Below, piece by piece: positions 60-35,050 of a stretch of DNA of 64,000 nt. A model generated the notes under the pieces. It ran no database searches. It was given only the letters and a program-made list of their open reading frames with translations, and was not told where the DNA came from. Origin of the DNA: Scyliorhinus canicula (Eukaryota); contig NC_052155.1 of assembly GCF_902713615.1 (NCBI RefSeq), positions 161,113,828 to 161,177,827 of the forward strand, given 5' to 3'. Position 1 is the stretch's first letter. Every line of letters begins with the position of its first letter. The position numbers were made by a program, and so were the translations under genes.

Positions 60-1329
60 GTGTCTAAAATGAAGATGCTAGCTCGAAGCTACGTTTGGTG
101 GCCAGGTTTGGACAAAGACATAGCAGCCTTGGTACGTCGGTGCCAGGAGTGCCAACAGGGGCAAAGAGTGCCACCAGCGGCACCATTGCACCCGTGGGAA
201 TGGCCAGGCAGACCGTGGACCCGCCTGCATATTGACCACGCCGGCCCTTTCATGGGCTCAATGTTTTTGGTGATAGTGGACGCCCACTCCAAATGGTTGG
301 ACATCCACCGTGTAAACACGCCAAGCACAGCATCGACAATTGAAAAGCTCAGGGCCTCGTTTGCAACACATGGACCTCTGGAGGTATTGGTGTCGGACAA
401 CGAAACGGCATTCACAAATGGGGAATTTGGAAAATTCCTGAAGGAAAACGAAGTCCGTCACATCAAAACGGCCCCTTACCATCCAGCGACAAATGGCCTG
501 GCAGAGAGAGTGGTCCAGACACTTAAAAGCGGGACTCAAGAAGCAGCCGGCAGCGTCAATAGACACAAAGCTCTCCCGCTGGCTGTTTGATTACAGAACC
601 ACACCGCATTCCACAACGGGCATACTGCCAGCTGAACTCTTAATGGGAAGGCGGCTGCGAACGAGGCTGAGTCTCCTTTTCCCAAATTTAACGGGGAAAG
701 TGGAGAAACATCAGGAGGCCCAACGCAGGGGGCATGATAATAGTCGGCAGCAGAGACATTTCCAGGTGGGGGCACCGGTTTGGGACAAGAATTATGGGAA
801 TGGACCAACGTGGGTCAAAGGCACGGTAGAGTCCCAAACAGGGCCCATATCCTATGAGGTTTCAATAGGAGGTAAGGTGTTGAAGAAACACCTAGACCAA
901 ATAAGGGCAGCGGAACCACACCTGGAGGCAGGCGAAGCAGGACCGCCTCAAGCTGGGATAGCCCAAACGGAAAGGATACCCACACCCCAGCCCCGAGCAA
1001 TTTCTCCAGACCCCGTCATCCAGTCATCAGAGTCGGAGATGGACACACTCGACGAGGCTGCCGCGACACCTCTCCCCGAGGAGGAGGAAGAACAACTTCC
1101 AAGGAGGTCGTCAAGGAAAAGACGGGCACCTATAAGGTACACCCCGCCCACTTCGGAGAACGACCCGGCGAACGACACAGAGGTGACAGATCCAGACATG
1201 AGAAGCAGGAAGAAGCTCAGAGGAATGCCAGCTGGCAGGAATTCCTTGGACCTTGGGGGGGGGGAGGGGTGTAATGAACTCCAATTGGCTTTATTAGTTG
1301 GCCAATTGGAGTATGAGCTCCCTCAATGA
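60..1329 (+). pseudogene. Frameshifted Gypsy integrase coding region
   Basis: Two overlapping ORFs together give a continuous rve-type integrase plus a low-complexity C-terminal tail. Confidence 0.85.
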
Positions 1330-17183: not shown

Positions 17184-19283
17184 ATAGTGTAGCGAACTGT
17201 GTATTTTGGAAAAATGAGTCTATTTCATATTTTAACGTCCTCTGCTTGTAAGAGTTAAATAGATCAGAAAGTACAATACATTTCAAATTTAAGTGCATTT
17301 GGAAAGTCTGTACAAACTCGCATTTAATTTGTCTTGAATTAAATGGCTTTTACTCACTTCACACTTTATCACATTGCCTTAGTAGGTCGAAGTTCAAACC
17401 TCTTTATCTAGTTAAAAATTAATGATGTTCCTTTCCTTATTCCCAGATGCAGTGAATGGAGAGCAAGTGTTGTCACGCTGGCTCAATCAGTGTTGTGTTA
17501 TCATCTTATGAAATCATGCTGGGCTCCATCTTTTTTAAAGGACTTTTATTCTAATAGCTGGTTACTTTGATAGTTTTTAAAATTATAATGCTTTGCTTTC
17601 ACAATGATCCATAATCAGTCGGATCCTATTCCAGATCATGTCCAGACAGTTATACTCGTGGATAAAGGGGGCGTTGTTAGTTCAGATCCAGTCTCCGCAT
17701 TAACGTCCAAGATGCCGGATCCACGTTCTGCAGATTTGAATTACACAAAATAGAACATAGAACATACAGTGCAGAAGGAGGCCATTCGGCCCATCGAGTT
17801 TGCACCGACCCACATTAAGCCCTCATTTCCACCGTAACCCAATAACCCCTCCTAATCTATGGCTCCAGATGAAAATGTCTTGAGACAACAAGACCTCATT
17901 CTTTCAGAATACCAATCCTACTATCTTCCCACTGCAACATTTGAATATTTCCTCTTAAATGACTGTAATGTCCTGATCGTGACCACAAGCGTTCAGATTT
18001 CTACTTACAAATACGGCTTATTATTGTAAAAGCAAAGGCAATAAACAGATTTTAAACTCAATTCACTTTTGATAGAGTGGAACATGATTCCTAAGGAAAC
18101 ACAACTATGCTTGAGTATTCAATTTCAAATGTTTTATTTATTTTTTATTTTGCAGTATATTTTGCAGGGGGGGGGCAGGGGGGTGTCTAAGACTCTGTTG
18201 ATGCTTGAGATTATTTTAAGTTTATTATTGATTGTTGAAGGATCAACTACAGTTGTGTTTGCCTTAACGTAATGTAGAGTACCAGAAAAGTTAATATTTA
18301 TCACTGATTTTGAAATGCTTAGTAATGGTCCTTGGGTGAACATTGATTTGTACTTCAATAGGTCGGAGTTTGAACTTGTTTAATCAGGGTGCTGAGATGT
18401 TTCAAAGGCGTGTTGTTTTTGATACTTACAACCTACCCTTTACCCAAAACTTATCTAGGTTTTCAGATTAAATCAACAGTTCATTAGCGGAAATATTTTA
18501 GATTTGTTTATTACCCTTCCTTCCATTTGTTTACTTGAGCTCTTCAGGATGTTTTGATGTTTTTGCACCAGTGCTAAATTTTTTGACAAAATTATTTTGA
18601 ATTGCCGGTTTTCAAAGTGACCATGTTTGAATAGTTCTAGTGACGTCGAACTCCATCTTCTCTGCGCCGTAACCTTTTCCTTAAAGAATGTTTAAAATTG
18701 ATTTGCGAAAGCAACTTGTTTGTGCAGTTGTTTTTTTTTTTAAATTGCCAATTTTAACTGACCCCTTTTTTTTATTTGTGTAGAGACAAGAAGGGTTTTG
18801 AGTAAATGTTTACAGAATTGAGGGAGAGGTAACCTGGGTTTGGAGGGACCATTGGATGGCAAGAACATGTCGGCTAAAGGGTCAGTCGCCAATGGTGACT
18901 GAACAATGGGGTAACTAAGTACACACTGGCAATAGTAAAATTATAGGTTGGAATTCTCCAGCCACCTGTTCCCGTCAGCAGGGCACCCCCACCTGGAGGT
19001 TTCCCGTCGGCGTGGAGTGGCTCACAATGGGAAAAAAGAACAAAGACGAACAAAGAAAAGTACAGCACAGGAACAGGCCCTTTGGCCCTCCAAGCCTGTG
19101 CCGACCATGCTGCCCGTCTAGACTAAAATCTTCTGCACTTCCGGGGTCCGTATCCCTCTATTTCCATCCTATTCATGTGTTTGTCAAGATGCCCCTTAAA
19201 TGTCACGATCATCCCTGCTTCCACCACCACCTCCTCCAGCAGCGAGTTCCAGGCACCCACTACCCTCTGTTAAAAAATAAAAC

Positions 19284-20991
19284 ATGCCTCGTATTGGTCC
19301 TTTAGAGGATGAGAAGGGAGTTTTAATAATGGGAAATGAGGAAATGGCTGAGGAACTGAACAGGTTTTTTGGGTCGGTCTTCACAGTGGAAGACACAAAT
19401 AACATGCCAGCGACTGATAGAAATGAGGCTATGACAGATGAGGACCTTGAGAGGATTGTTATCACTAAGGAGGTAGTGATAGGCAAGCTAAAGGAAGACA
19501 AGTCTCCTGGCCCTGATGGAATGCATCCCAGAGTGCTAAAAGAGATGGCTAGGGAAATTGCAGATGCACTAGTGATAATTTACCGAAATTCACTAGACTC
19601 TGGGGTGGTCCCGGTGGATTGGAAATTAGCAAACGTGACACCACTGTTTAAAAAAGGAGGTAGGCAGAAAGCAGGAAATTATAGGCCAGTGAGCTTAACT
19701 TCGGTAGTAGGGAAGATGCTGGAATCTATCATCAAGGAAGAAATAGCGAGGCATCTGGATAGAAATTGTCCCATTGGGCAGACGCAGCATGGGTTCATAA
19801 AGGGCAGGTCATGCCTAACTAATTTAGTGGAATTTTTTGAGGACATTACCAGTGCAGTAGATAATGGGGAGCCGATGGATGTGGTATATCTTGATTTCCA
19901 GAAAGCCTTTGACAAGGTGCCACACAAAAGGTTGCTGCATAAGATAAAGATGCATGGCATTAAGGGTAAAGTAGTAGCATGGATAGAGGATTGGTTAATT
20001 AATAGAAAGCAAAGAGTGGGGATTAATGGGTGTTTCTCTGGTTGGCAATCGGTAGCTAGTGGTGTCCCTCAGGGATCCGTGTTGGGCCCACAATTGTTCA
20101 CAATTTACATAGATGATTTGGAGTTGGGGACCAAGGGCAATGTGTCCAAGTTTGCAGATGACACTAAGATGAGTGGTAAAGCGAAAAGTGCAGAGGATAC
20201 TGGAAGTCTGCAGAGGGATTTGGATAGGTTAAGTGAATGGGCTAGGGTCTGGCAGATGGAATACAATGATGACAAATGTGAGGTTATCCATTTTGGTAGG
20301 AATAACAGCAAACGGGATTATTATTTAAACGATAAAATATTAAAGCATGCCACTGTGCAGAGAGACTTGGGTGTGCTAGTGCATGAGTCACAGAAGGTTG
20401 GTTTACAGGTGCAACAGGTGATTAAGAAGGCAAATGGAATTTTGTCCTTCATTGCTAGAGGGATGGAGTTTAAGACTAGGGAGGTTATGTTGCAATTGTA
20501 TAAGGTGTTAGTGAGGCCACACCTGGAGTATTGTGTTCAGTTTTGGTCTCCTTACTTAAGAAAGGACGTACTGGTACTGGAGGGTGTGCAGAGGAGATTC
20601 ACTAGGTTAATCCCAGAGCTGAAGGGGTTGGATTTATGAGGAGAGGTTGAGTAGACTGGGACTGTACTCATTGGAATTTAGAAGGATGAGGGGGGATCTT
20701 ATAGAAACATTTAAAATTATGAAGGGAATAGATAGGATAGATGCGGGCAGGTTGTTTCCACTGGCGGGTGAAAGCAGAACTAGGGGACATAGCCTCAAAA
20801 TAAGGGGAAGTAGATTTAGGACTGAGTTTAGGAGGAACTTCTTCACCCAAAGGGTTGTGAATCTATGGAATTCCTTGCCCAGTGAAGCAGTTGAGGCTCC
20901 TTCATTACATGTTTTTAAGGTAAAGATAGATAGTTTTTTGAAGAATAAAGGGATTAAGGGTTATGGTGTTCGGGCCGGAAAGTGGAGCTGA
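19284..20991 (+). pseudogene. CR1 ORF2 reverse transcriptase (5'-truncated, one frameshift)
   Basis: KSPGPDGMHPRVLKE, NYRPVSLTS, QHGF..GRSCLTNL, LDFQKAFDKVPH, GVPQGSVLGP, SKFADDTK, RPHLEYC. Confidence 0.93.
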
Positions 20992-25937: not shown

Positions 25938-26066
25938 CATCCAGGTGGCGAAGAAGTGCTGAAGGAGCAAGCCGGAGGCGATGCTTCAGAAGCTTTTGAT
26001 GATGTTGGACATTCTAGCGATGCACGAGAAATGACCAAAAAATATCTCATAGGAGAACTTCATCCT
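25938..26066 (+). CDS. CYB5A: Cytochrome b5 exon 2 ([43 protein letters not shown])
   Basis: Acceptor cttgcag|CAT, donor CCT|gtgagt; 129 nt; contains both axial heme histidines. Confidence 0.97.
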
Positions 26067-26454: not shown

Positions 26455-29332
26455 GAACGAAGAACAAAGACAATTACAGCACAGGAACAGGCCCTTCGGC
26501 ACTCCCAGCCTGCGCCGATCCAGATCCTTTATCTAAACCTGTCTCCTATTTTCCAAGGTCTACTTCCCTCTGTTCCCGCCCATTCATATACCTGTCTAGA
26601 TGCTTCTTAAATGATGCTATCGTGCCCGCCTCTACCACCTCCGCTGGTAAAGCGTTCCAGGCACCCACCACCCTCTGCGTAAAAAAACTTTCCACGCACC
26701 TCTCCGTTAAACTTTCTCCCCCTCACCTTGAAATCATGACATCTTGTAACTGACACCCCCACTCTTGGGAAAAGCTTGTTGCTGTTCACCCTGTCCATAC
26801 CCCTCATAATTTTGTAGACCTCAATCAGGTCCCCCCTCAACCTCCGTCTTTCCAACGAAAACAATCCTAATCTACTCGACCTTTCTTCATAACTAGCACC
26901 CTCCATACCAGGCAACATCCTGGTGAACCTCCTCTGCACCCTCTCCAAGGCATCCACATCCTTCTGGTAATGTGGCGACCAGAACTGCACGCAGTATTCC
27001 AAATGTGGCCGAACCAAAGTCCTATACAACTGTAACATGACCTTCCAACTCTTGTACTCAATACCCCGTCCGATGAAGGCAAGCATGCTGTATGCCTTCT
27101 TGACCACTCTATCAACCTGCGTTGCCACCTTCAGGGTACAATGGACCTGAACTCCCAGATCTCTGTGCACATCAATTTTCTCCAAGACCCTTCCATTGAC
27201 CATATAGTCCGCTCTTGAATTTGATCTTCCAAAATGCATCACCTCGCATTTGCCTAGATTGAACTCCATCTGCCATTTCTCTGCCCAACTCTCCAATCTA
27301 TCTATATTTTGTTGTATTCTTTGACAGTCCTCCTCGCTATCTGCAACTCCACCAATCTTAGTATCATCTGCAAACTTGCTAATCAGACCACCTGTACCTT
27401 CCTCCAGGTCATTTATGTAGATCACAAACAACAGTGGTCCGAGCACGGATCCCTGTGGAACACCACTAGTCACCCTTCTCCATTTTGAGACACTCCCTCC
27501 ACCACTACTATCTGTCTCCTGTTGCCCAGCCAGTTCTTTATCCATCTAGCTAGTACACCCTGAACCCCATACGACTTCACTTTTTCCAACAATCTGCCAT
27601 GGGAAACTTTATCAAACGCCTTACTAAAGTCCATGTATACGACATCTACAGCCCTTCCCTCATCAATTAACTTTGTCACTTCCTCAAAGAATTCTATTAG
27701 GTTTGTAAGACATGACCTTCCCTGCACAAAACCATGCTGCCTATCACTGATAAGTCTATTTTCTTCCAGATGTGAATAGATCCTATCCCTCAGTATCTTC
27801 TCCAACAGTTTGCCTACCACTGACGTCAAGCTCACAGGTCTATAATTCCCTGGATTATCCCTGCTACCCTTCTTAAACAAAGGGACAACATTAGCAATTC
27901 TCCAGTCCTCCGGGACCTCACCCGTGCTCAAGGATGCTGCAAAGATATCTGTTAAGGCCCCAGCTATTTCGACCCTAGCTTCCCTCAGTAACCTGGTATA
28001 GATCCCATCCGGTCCTGCGGACTTATCCATCTTAATGTCTTTTAGAATACTCAAAACATCCCCCTTCTGTATGACAACTTGACTGAGAGTATTTAAACAT
28101 CCATCCCTAGCCTCAACATCCGTCTTGTCCCTCTCCTTTGTGAATACCAATGCAAAGTACTCATTAAGAATCTCGCCCATTTCCTCTGAGTCCACGCATA
28201 AATTCCCTCTTTTGTCTTTAAGTGGGCCAATCCTTTCCCTAGTTACCCTCTTGCTCCTTACATACGAATAAAATGCTTTGGGATTTTCCTTAATCCTGTT
28301 AGCCAAAGATATTTCATGACCCCTTTTAGCCCTCTTTATTGCGCGTTTGAGATTCGTCCAACTTTTTCCGATATTCCTCCAAAGCTTCATCAGTTTTGAG
28401 TTGTCTCGATCCTATGTATGCTTCCTTTTTCATCTTGGCTAGTCTCACAATTTCACCCGTCATCCATGGTTCCCTAATCTTGCCATTTCTATCTTTCATT
28501 TTCACAGGAACATGTCTGTCCTGCACTCTAATCAACCTTTCCTTAAAAGACTTCCACATTTCAAATGTGGATTTACCCTTAAACAGCTGCTCCCAATCCA
28601 CATTCCCTAGCTCCTGCCGAATTTTGTTATACTCTGCCTTTCCCCAATTTAGTACTCTTCCTTTCGGACCCCTCTTGTCCTTGTCCATGAGTATTCTAAA
28701 ACTTACGGAATTGTGATCGCTATTCCCAAAGTAATCACCGACTGAAACATCAACCACCTGGCCGGGATCATTCCCCAATACCAGGTCCAGTATGTCCCCT
28801 TCCCGAGTTGGACTATTTACGTACTGCTCTAAAAAACTCTTCTAGATGCTCCTTACAAACTCTGCTCCATCTACGCCTCCAACACTACACGAACCCATTC
28901 AATGTTGGGGAAGTTAAAATCTCCCATCACAACCACCCTATTGCTCCTACATTTTTCTATAATCTGTCTGCATATTTGTACCTCTACTTCATGCTCGCTT
29001 TTGGGAGGCCTGTAGTAAAGTCCCAACAATGTTGCTGCACCCTTCCTATTTCTCAGCTCCACCCATATTGCCTCAGTGCTTGAATCCTCCATCATGCCCC
29101 CCTTAATCACAGCTGTGATATCATCTCTGACGAGTAATGCAACTCCTCCACCCCTTCTACCTCCCTCTCTATCCCTCCTGAAGCATCTATACCCTGGGAT
29201 ATTCAGTTGCCAGTCCTGCCCTTCCCTCAACCAAGTCTCAGTAATACCAATAGCATCATATTCCCAGGTACTGATCCAAGCCCCAAGTTCATCTGCCTTA
29301 CCTGCTACACTTCTCGCATTAAAACAAATGCA
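26455..29332 (-). mobile_element. Near-complete CR1 ORF2 (APE endonuclease + RT), antisense to CYB5A
   Basis: Four overlapping ORFs (28871-29371, 28326-28778, 27470-28390, 26607-27545) with ITETWL, GDFN, SDH, FADDTK and RPHLEYC; about three frameshifts; 3' tail near 26455. Confidence 0.95.
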
Positions 29333-30474
29333 CCATGGAGGCAGCTTGGCAGCCACAGCAAGGTCCCACAAAGAACAATGTGATTAATGATCCAATGATC
29401 TGTTACTTTTACTGATGTTTTTTGAGGAATAAATGACTGTGCCACTGAGAAACCTTTTCCATCCACCTAAGAGGGAAGAAAGAGCCTCTGTTTAATATTT
29501 CATTTGAGAAATGGCACCTCCAACTGTGCAGCACTCTGTGTAGTGGAGTCTCAGCCAAACCCACAACAGTAGATGCCATTCTTTGGAGAATAGTGGTTCA
29601 TGGTTTGCACATAAAAACTCATAATGCTCTCTGTCATCTTCTACTTATGTAACATGCGGTTGGAGCTTGCAAGTGTGACTGTGCCTTGTGAAGCCAGGAG
29701 TTTTATTCGTGAGTCCATGATCAAGCCTTGATTCTTGACCCTGTTTACTCCCTGGGTCGGTACTTGCTTTTCGGTGAGAGTTCTGAGGTTTTGAGAGATC
29801 TACCTGCTGAGCAGAAGGGATTCCTGGACTTAAGACAACACCTTTGAAACATAGTCATCGGTGTCTACAGCACAGAAATGGCCCTTCACATGTACGCCGG
29901 TCAAAAACCATTACCTCCATACTCTCATCCCATTTTCCAGCACTTGGACAATAGCCTTGCCTTCACAAATGCACATCTAAATACTACTTAAATGTTCTGA
30001 GGGTCTCTGCCTCTACCACGGTTTTCAAGCAGTGCGTTTCAGACTCCCAGCATCCTCTGGGTGAAAAAGCTTTTCCTAGCATCCCCTCAACCTCCTGCCC
30101 CTTACCTTAAATCTATGCCTCCGGTTATTGATCCTTCCACTAACTGGGAAAAGTTTCTGCCTGTCTACTCCACCTATGCCCCTCATAATTTTATACATCT
30201 CAATCATGCCCCCCCCCCCCCCCCCCCCCCCCATTAATCGCCTCTGCTCCATGGAAAACAACAATGTCCATCTAATCTCTCTTCATAAAACTTTTCAGCC
30301 CAGACAATATCCTGATAAATCTCCTCTGTAACCTTTCCAGTGCTATCACATCACTCCTATGATGTGGATTCCAGAACTGCACACACTACTCCAGCTGTGG
30401 CCTGTGGAGTTCCAGCATAACTTCCCTGCTCTTCCTCGGCTAATAAAGCCAAGTATACCATATGCCTTTTTTTT

Positions 30475-30690: not shown

Positions 30691-31070
30691 ATATGCCTTC
30701 TTAACCAGTGCCTTCTTAACCCATGTATCTACTTGTCCTTTGCTACCCTAAGCGATTGGTGTACATGCTCACCAAGATCCCTCTGATCCTCAGTGCTTCC
30801 CAGGGCCCTGTTGTTTATCATGCATTCACTTGCCTTGTTTGTGCTGCCCAAGTGCATCTCCTCTAAATTATCTGGATTGAATTCCATTTGTCTCTGACCA
30901 GCCCATCTATATCCTCCTGTAACCAAGGCTATCCTCCTCATTATTTACCACCCACAAACTTTCGTATATCTAAGATATAGGCAAGCAACCACGGGCAAGC
31001 AATGATGGATTGGAGCAAAATGTTTTTGTTTGACTTACTCACTCACTACAGACTATTCCCCGAAGGGTCC

Positions 31071-32277
31071 TGTAGAAGTCAGGTATTTTAAATACACTTA
31101 ATATAGGTAAGAAGACTGTTTAAGACAGAAATATTAAATCCCAGTTTTAAAATGAAAGAAATATACAACTTCCAAACTCAGACATGTGTTTGGGAAAAAC
31201 AGAACCACTGATAAAAACATCACATTCTTTCAAGGGCAGCAGCAAAATCCCATGGATTTTAAGGTGGTATAATCAAAGGACCCATTGTTTTGAATTCTGG
31301 CCACTTGTGATAACAGCCTGAACCACATTCCATAACGTATGCAAGCTGAAACATTTTAAACTGTGTCAAAATACAGTTTCATTTATATTTTCGAAATAAT
31401 AGTATGATGAGATGACATAATGTTTTAATTGTTGCAGATAAGCAACAATTGGAAGTGGCGTTGCATTGGGAGGATGGACGGCTTGTTATCAAATCAAATG
31501 TGTTTTGAATATAGTTTAAACCAATTAGGATTATATTGGGGTGTGATCGGATCGCTTAAGACAGATACCAAAGAGTATATCCATGGATAATTTGGCCACC
31601 ATTTTAAGACTAGAGACAAGAGACTAGAAGGCAAGAAGACAGACAAGTCAGAGAGACAGACAGAAAGACACAGAGAGAAAGAGACAGGAAAGAGACAAAG
31701 AGAACAAGGCAGAAAGAGAGAGAGAGAGAGAGTAAAGGAAGAGAATTAGAAAAGAGTTCTGTATTCCTATTTCATTTTCATACTTTAACTTCAGCCGTTG
31801 ACTTTTAAAGTTGTGTTCAGGCTATTGTCTCAGAAGATAATTCCTGTGATTCTTTGAAGAAAATCAAATTGTCTACAAACTACCTTTTAAATCATTTTCA
31901 AGTTGTAACCAATGAACTTCAATAAAACAATTCTTATTTGCACCTGACAAGTTTTTAACTTGAATTTCTACTGAGTTTCAGCAATGTCTCACCAACAACC
32001 GGCAACCGTAATTTAAATAAAACTGGATTCAAATCCTAAGATATAACACTTGAAATCCTAAGATACTACAATTGGCGTAGTCGGGCAGCGGGGGAGGAGT
32101 TCTGATTCGACCTTTGGAGAGGTTCGGAAAGCTTCGTGAGAAATCGGAGGAGGAACAGGCGACGACTTGAATTTCTACTGAGTTTCAGCAATGTCTCACC
32201 AACAACCGGCAACCGTAATTTAAATAAAACTGGATTCAAATCCTAAGATATAACACTTGAAATCCTAAGATACTACA
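31071..32277 (+). mobile_element. Internally deleted ERV-like/LTR element: 5' LTR 31071-32070, tRNA-Ser PBS, 94-bp internal remnant, terminal 113 bp of the 3' LTR
   Basis: TGTAG...CTACA termini; TSD GGTCC at 31066-31070 and 32278-32282; TGGCGTAGTCGG at 32073-32084; 31958-32070 identical to 32165-32277. Confidence 0.88.
32073..32090 (+). other. Primer-binding site complementary to the 3' end of tRNA-Ser
   Basis: TGGCGTAGTCGG(GCAG) lies 2 nt after the LTR end and matches the start of the Ser PBS consensus TGGCGTAGTCGGCAGGAT. Confidence 0.8.
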
Positions 32278-35050
32278 GGTCCCCCGATCCTGGCCCACAC
32301 TCGGGTTGGGGTATTTATCTTGTTGGGCACCTTTGCCCCTCATCTAGGAAGATCATGCTCTGGTGAGACCATAGCCTCAGGTTGGGTTACAAAGCGCTGC
32401 CCCCCCCCCCCCCCCCCCCCCCCCTTTCAAAGCTGAAACATCCCCCATTCCGATGGCTGGAGGGTTCTGCTCCTTGGACCGTTTGCCTGGGGCTGCCTTT
32501 AGGGGTGTCTGTTGTATCATGTAATGGACTGGGGAGTGGCGTTTTCAGGCTGACATTCCGAGTGGAATGAACTCGCTGGGGCCAACGAATGGCCCCAGGT
32601 TTACGGCAACCTCGGTTGGTTGAGTTTCCATGTCTGATTCCTGGTCTGAGGTATCAGCTTCCCACATCTCCAATCCGCGGGGCAAGTCACTCTCAAAATA
32701 TTGCTATGGCAGCTGCGCTGGAGGAAGAGGTACCACTGCTCTTGGGATCTCGGGGTGGTCTTTGAGGACCTCCTGGGTCCGGTTCCGGAGGTGGTCCAAG
32801 TGCCTGTTTGACTCTTTCCCTTGTCCTCGTACTGAGTAACAGACCGGTCCCGACTGTTTCACCGTGACACCCGGAATCCACAGCGAAAAACTGCATGTAG
32901 ACCGTGTCGCATGCGGCAAATTCCCAGATCTGTCTGATTGCCTCGTGTCGGGGTGCTCTTGCCTGTGGCAGACCTTCACCCCAATGTCCGGCACGACAGG
33001 GTTGTGTGCACAGCCAACGTCCCACCAGTAGCTCGGAGGGTGCTACCATGGTGGTGGAGTATGGTGTGGTATGGTAATAAAACAAAAACAAGGCCTATGG
33101 GGAACCTGAGGTTTGTTTTACGCATGCCCATCTCGAAGGTCTGCACGGCTCGCTCACCAACCCATTGGATGACTGGTGGTAAGGTGCCGTCTTGCATGGC
33201 GGACGCCATTTGTCTGCAGGATATTCTGAGCTGGTAAATGCCGTGCCGTTGTCCGACACTAAAACCTCTGGGATTCCATGGACGCTGAAGGTCTGGCGGA
33301 GCTTCTTATTCGCGAACTGTGATGTTGTCGTCATCTTGCAGTGGATGTCTAACCACTTCAACTGGGCATCCACTATTAGCAGAAACATTGAGCCTTGGAA
33401 AGAGCCAGCAATATCTATGTGTAATCATGACCACGACTGGCCCGTCCACTCCCACGGGTGGAGGGGTGCCGCATGTGATGCTCTTGGCACCATGTGCATT
33501 GTCTTGCCAGAGCTTTGATGCCAGCTTCGATCCATGTCACGCGGTTCAACGTCATTTTGTAGCCCCCGCACAACCTGACTGTTCCATCAGGTTTCATCAC
33601 TGGAACTATTGGCGCTGCCCAATCAGCGATCTGCACTGGGTAGATGATCCCTAAATGCTCTGATCGGTCCAGCTCCACATCCACTTTCAGCTTCACGGCA
33701 TAGGGAATGGGGTGGGTGTGAAAGTACTGCGGCTGGGCCGTGGGATGCACAAAAATCTTGGCAGCAGTACCTCAGATGCTCCCGAAACCTTCCTTTAATA
33801 CTGGTGGAAATTTCGCAGGCACCGCATCTGGCCCATCAGAGCACATCTGGCACAATTGCTGCCAGTCCAATCAGAGGCGCTTTAGCCAATATCGGCCTAG
33901 CAGGCTGGGGCCCGTCCCTCGGACTACCACCAATGTTAGATTTGCGGATTGTCCCCCTTACTCCATGGGGACCTCTGAAGACGCCTCTGATTTCTAACAG
34001 CTCACCCTTGTACATTGCCAGCCTTGTCTTGTAGCTCCGAATATTGGATACCCGAAAGAACATTGTCGAATGGGTGTCTGCTTACCATGGGCATTTCAGT
34101 CCCGGTCTCCAACTTGTGAGGATTGGGACCCATTTAACCAACTTGGTCAGATGTGACGACCCCTTAACAAAACCATGCTGACTGTCCTTGATTAATCCCT
34201 GCCTCCCCAAATGAAGATTAATTTGGTGTCTCACAATTGCTTCCAATAGTTTCCCTGCCACTGAGTTAGACTGACTGGCCTGTAGTTCCCTGGTTTATCC
34301 CTTCCTCCCTTCTTGAATAATGGTACCACATTGGTATCCTCTAGTCCTCCGGCACCTCTCCTGTGGCCAGAGAGGAGTAGAAAATTATTTCCAGGGCCCC
34401 TGCTATTTCCTGTCTTGGCTGACTCAGCAGCCTGAGTTACATTTCACCTGGCCCTGGAGATCTGTTTACTTTTAAACCTGCCAGACCACTCGGAACCTCT
34501 CCCAGTCTGCGTTTAGTTCTTGTTAATCACAGTGCTTCTCCCCGATTTCTGTACCTACGTGGCCCTTTCACTAGTGAACACCAACACAAAGTATTCATTT
34601 AGATTCCTACGACTTTCAGCTTCCACACACAAATTAGCACTGTGGTCCTTAATGGGCCCTACTCTTTCCCTCGTTATCCTTTTACCTTTTAATGTATTTG
34701 TGAAACAACTCTGGATTTTCCTTTACTTTACCTGCCAGAATACCTTCATTTCTCATTGTTGCTCTCCTATTTTGCTTTTTAAGTTCTCGCTTGCACATTC
34801 TAAACTCCTCTAAGGTTTTTTCGTTATGAACCTTCAATATCTGCCGTAAGCCTCCTTTTCTCTCCTTATCCAATGCTGTGTATCCCTCGATATTCAAGGT
34901 TCACTGGATATGCAAGTCCCACACTTTTTCTTGATTGGAACGTGTTAACCTTGTACTCTCCCTATTTCCGTCTTGAATGCGGCCCACTCTTCTGTCACAG
35001 ATTTGCCTAAAAATGTCTTCTCCGCGCCCACTCTGGCCAAATAATAATCC

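What the first reader, a model, noticed from the sequence alone, without database searches (positions are those of the whole stretch)
31066..32282. Young, almost fully deleted ERV-like provirus with a tRNA-Ser PBS and 5-bp TSD inside CYB5A intron 2
Seen in the sequence: a 1,000-bp LTR (TGTAG...CTACA, 31071-32070) and a PBS (TGGCGTAGTCGG at 32073). Only 94 bp of internal sequence follow, then a perfect 113-bp copy of the LTR end (32165-32277 = 31958-32070), all flanked by GGTCC. This is neither a solo LTR nor a provirus: one deletion removed the coding region and most of the 3' LTR. Established: a Ser PBS with a 5-bp TSD is typical of class III (ERV-S/spuma-related) endogenous retroviruses, although some LTR retrotransposons share these traits. 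Inference: the identical LTR ends suggest a recent insertion (113 bp gives limited resolution), so an intact and possibly uncharacterised cartilaginous-fish retrovirus family may exist elsewhere in the genome.
Basis: partly seen in the sequence, partly recalled or inferred. Interest (0 to 1): 0.7.

Follow-up and report, generated by a model that had tools for sequence, protein, structure and literature searches.

The report
Copy-error stub of a shark retrovirus
This is a one-off 1.2-kb stub of a widespread, env-bearing catshark endogenous retrovirus, sitting in a CYB5A intron and likely made by a reverse-transcriptase template jump; its parent family groups beside the gamma-type retroviruses yet is predicted to make its polymerase by ribosomal frameshifting, which that group is not reported to use.

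Summary
Observation confirmed: GGTCC TSD, 1,000-bp LTR, tRNA-Ser PBS, 94-96 bp of leader and a perfect 113-bp U5 copy, in sense in CYB5A intron 2. The junction is single-copy, so this is no mobilised family. The parent is a real retrovirus family (gag, pro-pol, gamma-type env; 77 leader motifs, 294 exact U5 motifs; LTR pairs 0-1.9% apart). It is not class III as tested: YVDD, a Gag zinc knuckle, no dUTPase, and an RT clade shared with teleost ERVs that is sister to the MLV-containing clade (97/99). Walleye and snakehead viruses were not in the tree. A second, independent insertion has the same LTR-PBS-U5 layout on a 3' LTR, and such junctions are published for HIV-1, so a reverse-transcription jump is likelier than a later deletion. 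The 113-bp identity alone dates little. The unusual part is the family: pro-pol lies in the -1 frame behind A AAA AAC (27 of 30 copies) and a stem-loop, whereas gamma, epsilon, SSSV, ZFERV and SnRV are listed as readthrough viruses. The scan noted a reverse-transcription-born stub of another family in this genome, not this one.

The parts
31066..31070 (+). Left target-site duplication GGTCC
   Evidence: family TSD is 5 bp
31071..32070 (+). Complete LTR (U3-R-U5), TG..CA; 92-96% to family copies
31921..31926 (+). AATAAA poly(A) signal; places the R/U5 border just upstream of the repeated 113 bp (inferred)
32031..32070 (+). Locus-private 22-nt reiteration of the U5 tip (U5 end + CTTG + U5 end), also present in the 3' copy
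32073..32090 (+). tRNA-Ser(AGA) primer-binding site, genome type (12 nt perfect, then one extra G)
32091..32166 (+). Start of the family's 5' leader, cut off; last 2 nt (AC) are the junction microhomology
32165..32277 (+). Perfect 113-bp copy of the LTR's U5 end, with intact terminal CA
32278..32282 (+). Right target-site duplication GGTCC
25938..26066 (+). CYB5A exon 2 (upstream border of the host intron)
38946..38975 (+). CYB5A exon 3 candidate, 30 nt, AG/GT bounded (downstream border of the host intron)
   Evidence: exon size compared with recalled CYB5A structure

Best explanation
The element is a single, non-coding stub of an env-bearing catshark endogenous retrovirus that was likely born in this form when reverse transcriptase jumped between the U5 tip and the leader through a 2-nt match, and was then integrated normally. 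Most likely route (inferred): minus-strand strong-stop DNA stalled after about 113 nt, near the R/U5 border, and re-primed 96 nt into the leader instead of on the 3' R. The full left LTR then came either from the other packaged RNA's plus-strand strong-stop DNA or from later solo-LTR recombination of a provirus whose LTRs both carried the reiteration. A plus-strand jump onto the displaced minus-strand end is a variant that these data cannot separate. Shown: both ends are proper integrase ends with a 5-bp TSD; the stub lacks a PPT and a 3' U3-R, so it cannot regenerate itself (established retroviral mechanism). The parent family is a fish lineage on the class I side of the RT tree that primes on tRNA-Ser and is predicted to express Pol by -1 frameshifting.
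For: Exactly 2 loci in the genome have a PBS followed by U5 within 250 nt (control 0): the window and L202. L202 has its own TSD (GATAT) and carries 13 nt of PBS plus about 128 nt of R/U5 behind an LTR that is itself preceded by the PPT, so no deletion of a 3' U3 can explain it; its two U5 copies differ at 2 sites. Other fixed RT errors occur in the family: tRNA-Ser copied beyond the PBS in L038 and L190, an inverted U5 tip in L033, short U5-PBS-U5 reiterations in L014/L027 and L186. In HIV-1, 24 of 88 proviruses had an intact 5' LTR and a deleted 3' LTR (PMC9278108), and 7 of 395 deletions ended in U5, read as premature first-strand transfer (PMC12657518). Both breakpoints here lie within about 110 nt of a U5 end. 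Junction single-copy. Family anatomy; tree.
Against: The private 22-nt duplication is in both U5 copies and nowhere else. The minus-strand route then needs a parent RNA that already had it and is absent from this assembly, whereas a later deletion or a plus-strand jump explains it directly. In L202 the two U5 copies differ, here they are identical. 0 of the 29 other best leader hits and 0 of 28 further leader loci show a jump landing in the leader. 2-nt microhomology fits end-joining repair just as well. The inner junction was not seen in independent contigs.
Confidence: 0.7

Rival explanations
1. A full provirus integrated first; one later chromosomal deletion (microhomology-mediated end joining at AC) removed about 9 kb, from the leader to the last 113 bp of the 3' LTR.
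For: Explains in one step why both U5 copies share the private 22-nt duplication and are identical. Large internal deletions are common in the family (L174, L187, L188). A sense-oriented intronic provirus losing its internal part is plausible under selection (inference).
Against: Needs both breakpoints within about 110 nt of a U5 end (about 1% x 11% if random, my arithmetic). Cannot produce L202, which has the same layout on a PPT-preceded LTR.
Confidence: 0.2
2. The 207-bp leader + U5 piece is an assembly chimera between a solo-LTR haplotype and a proviral haplotype.
For: No listed contig bridges 32166/32167, and the window's T at 32115 was not seen in contigs of any of the 4 runs laid.
Against: Run X1 joins the private duplicated U5 end to the right flank exactly. 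The layout recurs independently at L202. Contigs drop rare variants in a multi-copy family, so their absence is no evidence.
Confidence: 0.06
3. The parent family is class III or snakehead-retrovirus-like (clade Huo) rather than class I-related.
For: tRNA-Ser PBS, 5-bp TSD and TGT..ACA ends are shared with XtERV-S (PMC8278194). Structure-based RT identity to an unnamed BFVD entry that I recall as SnRV (Q88285) is 38%, like WDSV 36% and a bat gammaretrovirus 38%. SnRV was not in my tree.
Against: RT clade sister to the MLV-containing clade at 97/99; AU test rejects grouping with foamy viruses plus the one YIDD row (p = 0.032). PDB scores: MLV/XMRV RT 428 bits, foamy 195, Ty3 160. YVDD, CCHC knuckle, no dUTPase.
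Confidence: 0.2
4. The stub is a member of a mobilised non-autonomous family.
For: None found beyond the retained LTR and PBS.
Against: Junction present once with up to 1 mismatch; no PPT or 3' U3-R to regenerate the left LTR.
Confidence: 0.02

Closest known systems
HIV-1 proviruses with asymmetric LTRs / premature first-strand transfer (PMC9278108; PMC12657518)
   Same: Intact 5' LTR; deletion running from the 5' part into the 3' LTR and ending in U5; integrated normally; attributed to RT strand-transfer errors.
   Different: Somatic HIV-1 there, germ-line fossil here; the stub here keeps only 96 nt of internal sequence and has a private U5 reiteration.
Class I fish ERVs and epsilon-like viruses (WDSV, SSSV, ZFERV; clade Mu of PMC6001957)
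   Same: PR-RT-RH-IN order, YVDD, MLV-type integrase C-terminus, CCHC knuckle, gamma-type env (CXXC, furin site, ISD, CX6CC); RT groups on this side.
   Different: Only 31-38% RT identity to the BFVD retroviral hits nearest it; own clade with carp, cod, Coilia, Astyanax and gar elements; pro-pol in the -1 frame rather than behind a readthrough stop; Gag has no Pfam hit and a long coiled-coil repeat region.
XtERV-S / ERV-S / ERV-L (class III; PMC8278194)
   Same: 5-bp TSD, TGT..ACA ends, class I-type env as in XtERV-S; Ser PBS (recalled for ERV-S).
   Different: Those have YIDD, dUTPase, no Cys-His motif and gag-pol readthrough; this family has YVDD, no dUTPase, a Cys-His motif and a frame change.
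S. canicula syncytin-like env loci (bioRxiv 10.64898/2026.05.06.723177)
   Same: Same species by homolog name; env with CXXC/CX6CC next to pol called epsilon-derived; Gag detected in only 2 of 21 loci.
   Different: Whether those loci are this family could not be checked (supplements closed). That paper reads missing Gag as exaptation; this family has a Gag that Pfam does not detect.
MMTV-type -1 frameshift signal (A AAA AAC + downstream structure; recalled)
   Same: Same heptamer in phase at the end of gag, 6-nt spacer, stable stem-loop.
   Different: MMTV is class II and uses a pseudoknot; here the signal is predicted only and sits in a class I-side lineage.

Membership tests
Retroviridae (vs Gypsy/BEL) | env with retroviral TM features downstream of pol | tested here: met
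   TLV_coat E 9e-17; CWVC, RKKR, ISD, CX6CC
Retroviridae (vs Gypsy/BEL) | RT groups with retroviruses, not chromo-Gypsy | tested here: met
Class III ERV-S/ERV-L | 5-bp TSD | tested here: met
   15 of 17 solo LTRs; 7 of 15 complete LTR pairs
Class III ERV-S/ERV-L | tRNA-Ser PBS (ERV-S; recalled) | tested here: met
Class III ERV-S/ERV-L | YIDD RT motif | tested here: not met
   YVDD vs Table 2 of PMC8278194
Class III ERV-S/ERV-L | dUTPase in pol; no Cys-His motif in Gag | tested here: not met
   no dUTPase hit; CX2CX4HX4C present
Class III / spuma | RT clade with foamy viruses or ERV-L/S | tested here: not met
   AU p = 0.032 against; ERV-L/S represented by one unnamed YIDD row only
SnRV-like (clade Huo) / ERV4 | RT clade with snakehead retrovirus | not testable with these tools
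   no named SnRV or ERV4 sequence could be fetched
Class I (gamma/epsilon) | RT groups with MLV-containing clade | tested here: met
   sister group, 97/99, SH-aLRT 99 in the 67-row tree
Class I (gamma/epsilon) | gag and pro-pol in one frame, stop-codon readthrough | tested here: not met
   -1 offset in 25 of 30 copies, A AAA AAC in 27 of 30; readthrough listed for gamma, epsilon, SSSV, ZFERV, SnRV
Epsilonretrovirus proper (WDSV/WEHV) | RT clade with WDSV; accessory ORFs | tested here: inconclusive
   36% RT identity to WDSV; WDSV not in tree; no extra ORF with a Pfam hit among those scanned
Already catalogued repeat family | match to a Dfam/Repbase entry | not testable with these tools
   libraries not held
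Non-autonomous mobilised ERV (TRIM-like) | many copies with the same junction; PPT and two full LTRs | tested here: not met

The most novel reading that the evidence does not exclude
The stub points to an undescribed, recently active retrovirus lineage shared by sharks and bony fish that is sister to the gamma/epsilon group but makes Gag-Pol by -1 ribosomal frameshifting, primes on tRNA-Ser, cuts 5-bp TSDs and carries a long coiled-coil Gag. The readthrough-versus-frameshift choice, treated as a genus-level trait, would then have switched at the base of class I, and 'Gag-less' catshark env loci might be ordinary proviruses of this family.
Probability: 0.4. Interest if true: 0.65.

Novelty: new variant of a known kind. 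Interest (0 to 1): 0.45.

Why it matters
The stub itself is a germ-line example of a reverse-transcription error class documented in HIV-1, and it warns that TSD length and PBS type do not classify fish ERVs. The larger value is the family: a young, multi-copy shark ERV in a deep fish clade with a mix of class I and class III-like traits and a predicted frameshift where its relatives use readthrough. That bears on how retroviral Gag-Pol expression evolved, and on claims of env exaptation in catshark that rest on not detecting Gag.

Tried and rejected
No RNA holder was listed for the stretch; this says nothing on expression. Contigs of X2, X3 and X13 gave no cover of the right flank; holes prove nothing, so insertion polymorphism is untested. 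IMG/VR held no relative. The Gag capsid model had pLDDT 43 and was not searched; the Atlas gave retroviral Gag look-alikes for a S. torazame homolog at 0.87-0.91, a lead only. Named SnRV, WDSV, ERV-S or ERV-L proteins did not come up, so the tree lacks them. The one longer teleost-type metagenome contig (L206) is internally deleted across the gag-pol junction, so frameshift conservation outside this genome is untested. Of 20 more divergent copies, 7 showed both knuckle and protease motif: 5 at the -1 offset, 2 at other offsets; the rest were too decayed. PBS type as a test against a plus-strand jump was judged weak: only 6 of 64 PBS contexts are tRNA-type (de-duplication by local context, imperfect). 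A spliced pol message was considered, because a pyrimidine tract + CAG follows the gag stop; the tract is weakened in the 88-89% subfamily while the heptamer stays, so it is disfavoured, not excluded. ERV-Spuma.0-Sca (PMC10699275) is foamy-like with no gag or env detected: a different family. Searches for ERV4 features found nothing useful.

Full report
Observation. Every stated feature is in the sequence: GGTCC at 31066-31070 and 32278-32282, a TG..CA LTR at 31071-32070, AT plus TGGCGTAGTCGG at 32073, and a 113-of-113 repeat, 31958-32070 = 32165-32277. The PBS pairs with the 3' end of tRNA-Ser(AGA) genes of this genome (43 motif hits; ARAGORN called tRNA-Ser(AGA) in 3 of the 4 loci scanned). 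Cytochrome b5 exons at 2235-2366, 25938-26066, 38946-38975 and about 42493-42575 place the element in sense in intron 2; the A/B assignment uses recalled exon sizes. Both U5 ends carry a 22-nt reiteration found only at these two places in the 4.22-Gb genome. In run X1 a 108-nt contig joins that reiterated end to the right flank without mismatch; no listed piece bridges the inner junction, and 348 pieces were not shown.

The family. The LTR search gave 1,654 candidates, of which 40 were scored, at 92-96%. Exact motifs count 294 U5 ends and 77 leaders (up to 1 mismatch). 15 of 17 solo LTRs among the 29 other best hits have an exact 5-bp TSD. An RT search gave 151 matches; 32 are full-length at 96-100%, and 11 of the 150 listed lie in stop-free frames of 1,150 codons or more. 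Two copies read across their internal region show gag, pro-pol (PR, RT with YVDD, RNase H, IN, MLV-type IN C-terminus) and env (TLV_coat; CWVC, RKKR, ISD, CX6CC); both are broken, with a stop inside gag and a frame break in env. Gag has no Pfam hit; it is 99% identical to a protein named for Scyliorhinus canicula and 69-80% to S. torazame proteins, which gives the host. Of 33 LTR pairs examined, 15 were complete in the fetched stretches and 7 had matching 5-bp TSDs; their K2P distances are 0, 0.003, 0.003, 0.005, 0.005, 0.011 and 0.019, two of them duplicates of one insertion. With the 2.2e-10 per site per year assumed for sharks in PMC4422223 (main text read), 0.003-0.019 is 7-43 My; with an assumed 1e-9 it is 1.5-9.5 My. 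For the stub, 0 of 113 only bounds divergence below 2.6%, up to 60 or 13 My. Its LTR is 2.1-4.0% from the 29 nearest.

Class. Pol scores 428 bits against MLV/XMRV RT, 195 against foamy and 160 against Ty3. A confident RT model (pLDDT 91.5) matched WDSV at 36%, a bat gammaretrovirus at 38% and foamy viruses at 25-26%; two unnamed entries that I recall as SSSV and SnRV gave 31% and 38%. In RT trees rooted on chromo-Gypsy rows the family forms a clade with carp, cod, Coilia, Astyanax and gar elements (100/99; 64% best identity), sister to the MLV-containing clade (97/99); an AU test rejects grouping it with foamy viruses and the one YIDD row (p = 0.032) (the careful tree used 35 of the 67 rows and LG+G4). 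WDSV, SnRV and named ERV-S/ERV-L were not available. Against Table 2 of PMC8278194 (sections 5 and 10 and passages read) the family fails YIDD, dUTPase and absence of the Cys-His motif, while sharing the 5-bp TSD. Class III is therefore not supported; SnRV-like remains untested.

Gag-Pol expression. Pro-pol lies in the -1 frame relative to the Gag knuckle in 25 of 30 copies, and A AAA AAC sits in phase just before the gag stop in 27 of 30. A stem-loop starts 6 nt downstream (-31 kcal/mol, z = -3.4, 0 of 200 shuffles). Three copies of a subfamily at 88-89% RT identity keep the heptamer, the offset and the stem but not the nearby stop codon. The pol frame has no Met before the protease site. A review lists readthrough for gamma- and epsilonretroviruses, SSSV, ZFERV and SnRV, and frameshifting for alpha, beta, delta and lenti (PMC13517186, passages); XtERV-S also reads through. 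The frameshift is predicted, not shown, and untested outside this genome.

How the stub arose. The junction occurs once, has 2 nt of microhomology, and 0 of 29 plus 0 of 28 other leader loci repeat it. A genome-wide pattern for PBS followed by U5 within 250 nt finds two loci, control 0. The second, L202, has its own TSD and carries 13 nt of PBS and about 128 nt of R/U5 behind a PPT-preceded LTR. That cannot be a truncated 3' LTR; it fits minus-strand strong-stop DNA jumping back to the PBS region. The family holds other fixed RT errors, including tRNA-Ser read beyond the PBS. The same classes are published for HIV-1: asymmetric LTRs in 26 of 88 proviruses, 24 with the 3' LTR deleted (PMC9278108, passages), and U5 junctions in 7 of 395 deletions (PMC12657518, abstract and Results read). 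I therefore put birth in reverse transcription at 0.7. Against the minus-strand route, the private reiteration in both U5 copies needs an unseen parent, while a later deletion (0.2) or a plus-strand jump explains it directly; these cannot be separated here. Artefact 0.06.

Novelty. I did not find this family described in seven paper searches, but Dfam and Repbase are not held. PMC10435555 screened this species; no shark order is among its 37 orders with invading ERVs, and its supplements name the species only in the species and run tables (sections 6-7 read; files 1-14 searched by word, one PDF unreadable). A 2026 preprint reports 21 env loci in this species with epsilon-like pol and Gag detected in 2 (part 1 of 4 and passages read; supplements closed); they may include this family. 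PMC4977317, PMC10699275, PMC12440569, PMC8672886, PMC6001957 and bioRxiv 2024.07.05.601823 were seen as passages only. An earlier scan note (e1-10291450, unchecked) describes a reverse-transcription-born stub of a different, tRNA-Phe family in this genome.

Verdict. A real, single-copy stub of a known error class, from a recently active and apparently uncatalogued fish ERV lineage on the class I side, whose predicted frameshift is the point worth following. Interest 0.45; new variant of a known kind.

Noticed in passing
L202 (G000:C3:226878547-226881140): Independent 2.6-kb integrant with TSD GATAT: LTR with an inverted gag piece, 67 nt of PPT region, full LTR, 13 nt PBS, about 128 nt R/U5.
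   Followed up: yes
L038/L203 (C1:60.60 Mb) and L190 (C7:63.04 Mb): LTR followed by 35-41 nt complementary to tRNA-Ser(AGA), beyond the 18-nt PBS; in L038 joined to the env 3' end. Direct record that tRNA-Ser is the primer; matches the delayed second-strand transfer described for HIV-1.
   Followed up: partly
L014/L027/L033 (C1:79.13 Mb): 6.1-kb copy with a 31-nt U5-PBS-U5 reiteration in both LTRs, a tRNA-type PBS, an inverted U5 tip and an inverted pol segment.
   Followed up: partly
L102-L161: 8 of 15 complete LTR pairs have no matching 5-bp TSD (one of these has identical LTR cores), suggesting recombination between proviruses or mosaic assembly; several matched pairs differ only at the U5 tip.
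   Followed up: no
C17:116-126 Mb (L003, L004, L016, L017, L028-L030): One insertion (TSD ACCAT, same flank) is present several times, as provirus and as solo LTR: segmental duplication.
   Followed up: no
L031:7034-8482 (-); P0130: Gag begins with about 400 aa of coiled-coil repeats; one copy is annotated as 'cilia- and flagella-associated protein 58-like', a likely mis-annotation.
   Followed up: no
L165, L166, L167, L170, L199: Several family copies hold inverted internal or LTR segments.
   Followed up: no
G000:C6:207.69-207.79 Mb: About 28 tRNA-Ser 3' motif hits spaced near 2 kb: a tandem tRNA array.
   Followed up: no
L206:2690-7676: Teleost-type relative in a metagenome contig with a gag N-terminus fused in frame to the pol connection domain, plus an env-like ORF: an internally deleted element.
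   Followed up: partly
window 442-1329 (+), 19281-20991 (+), 26607-29383 (-): Long open frames, probably LINE remnants in and near CYB5A; not examined.
   Followed up: no
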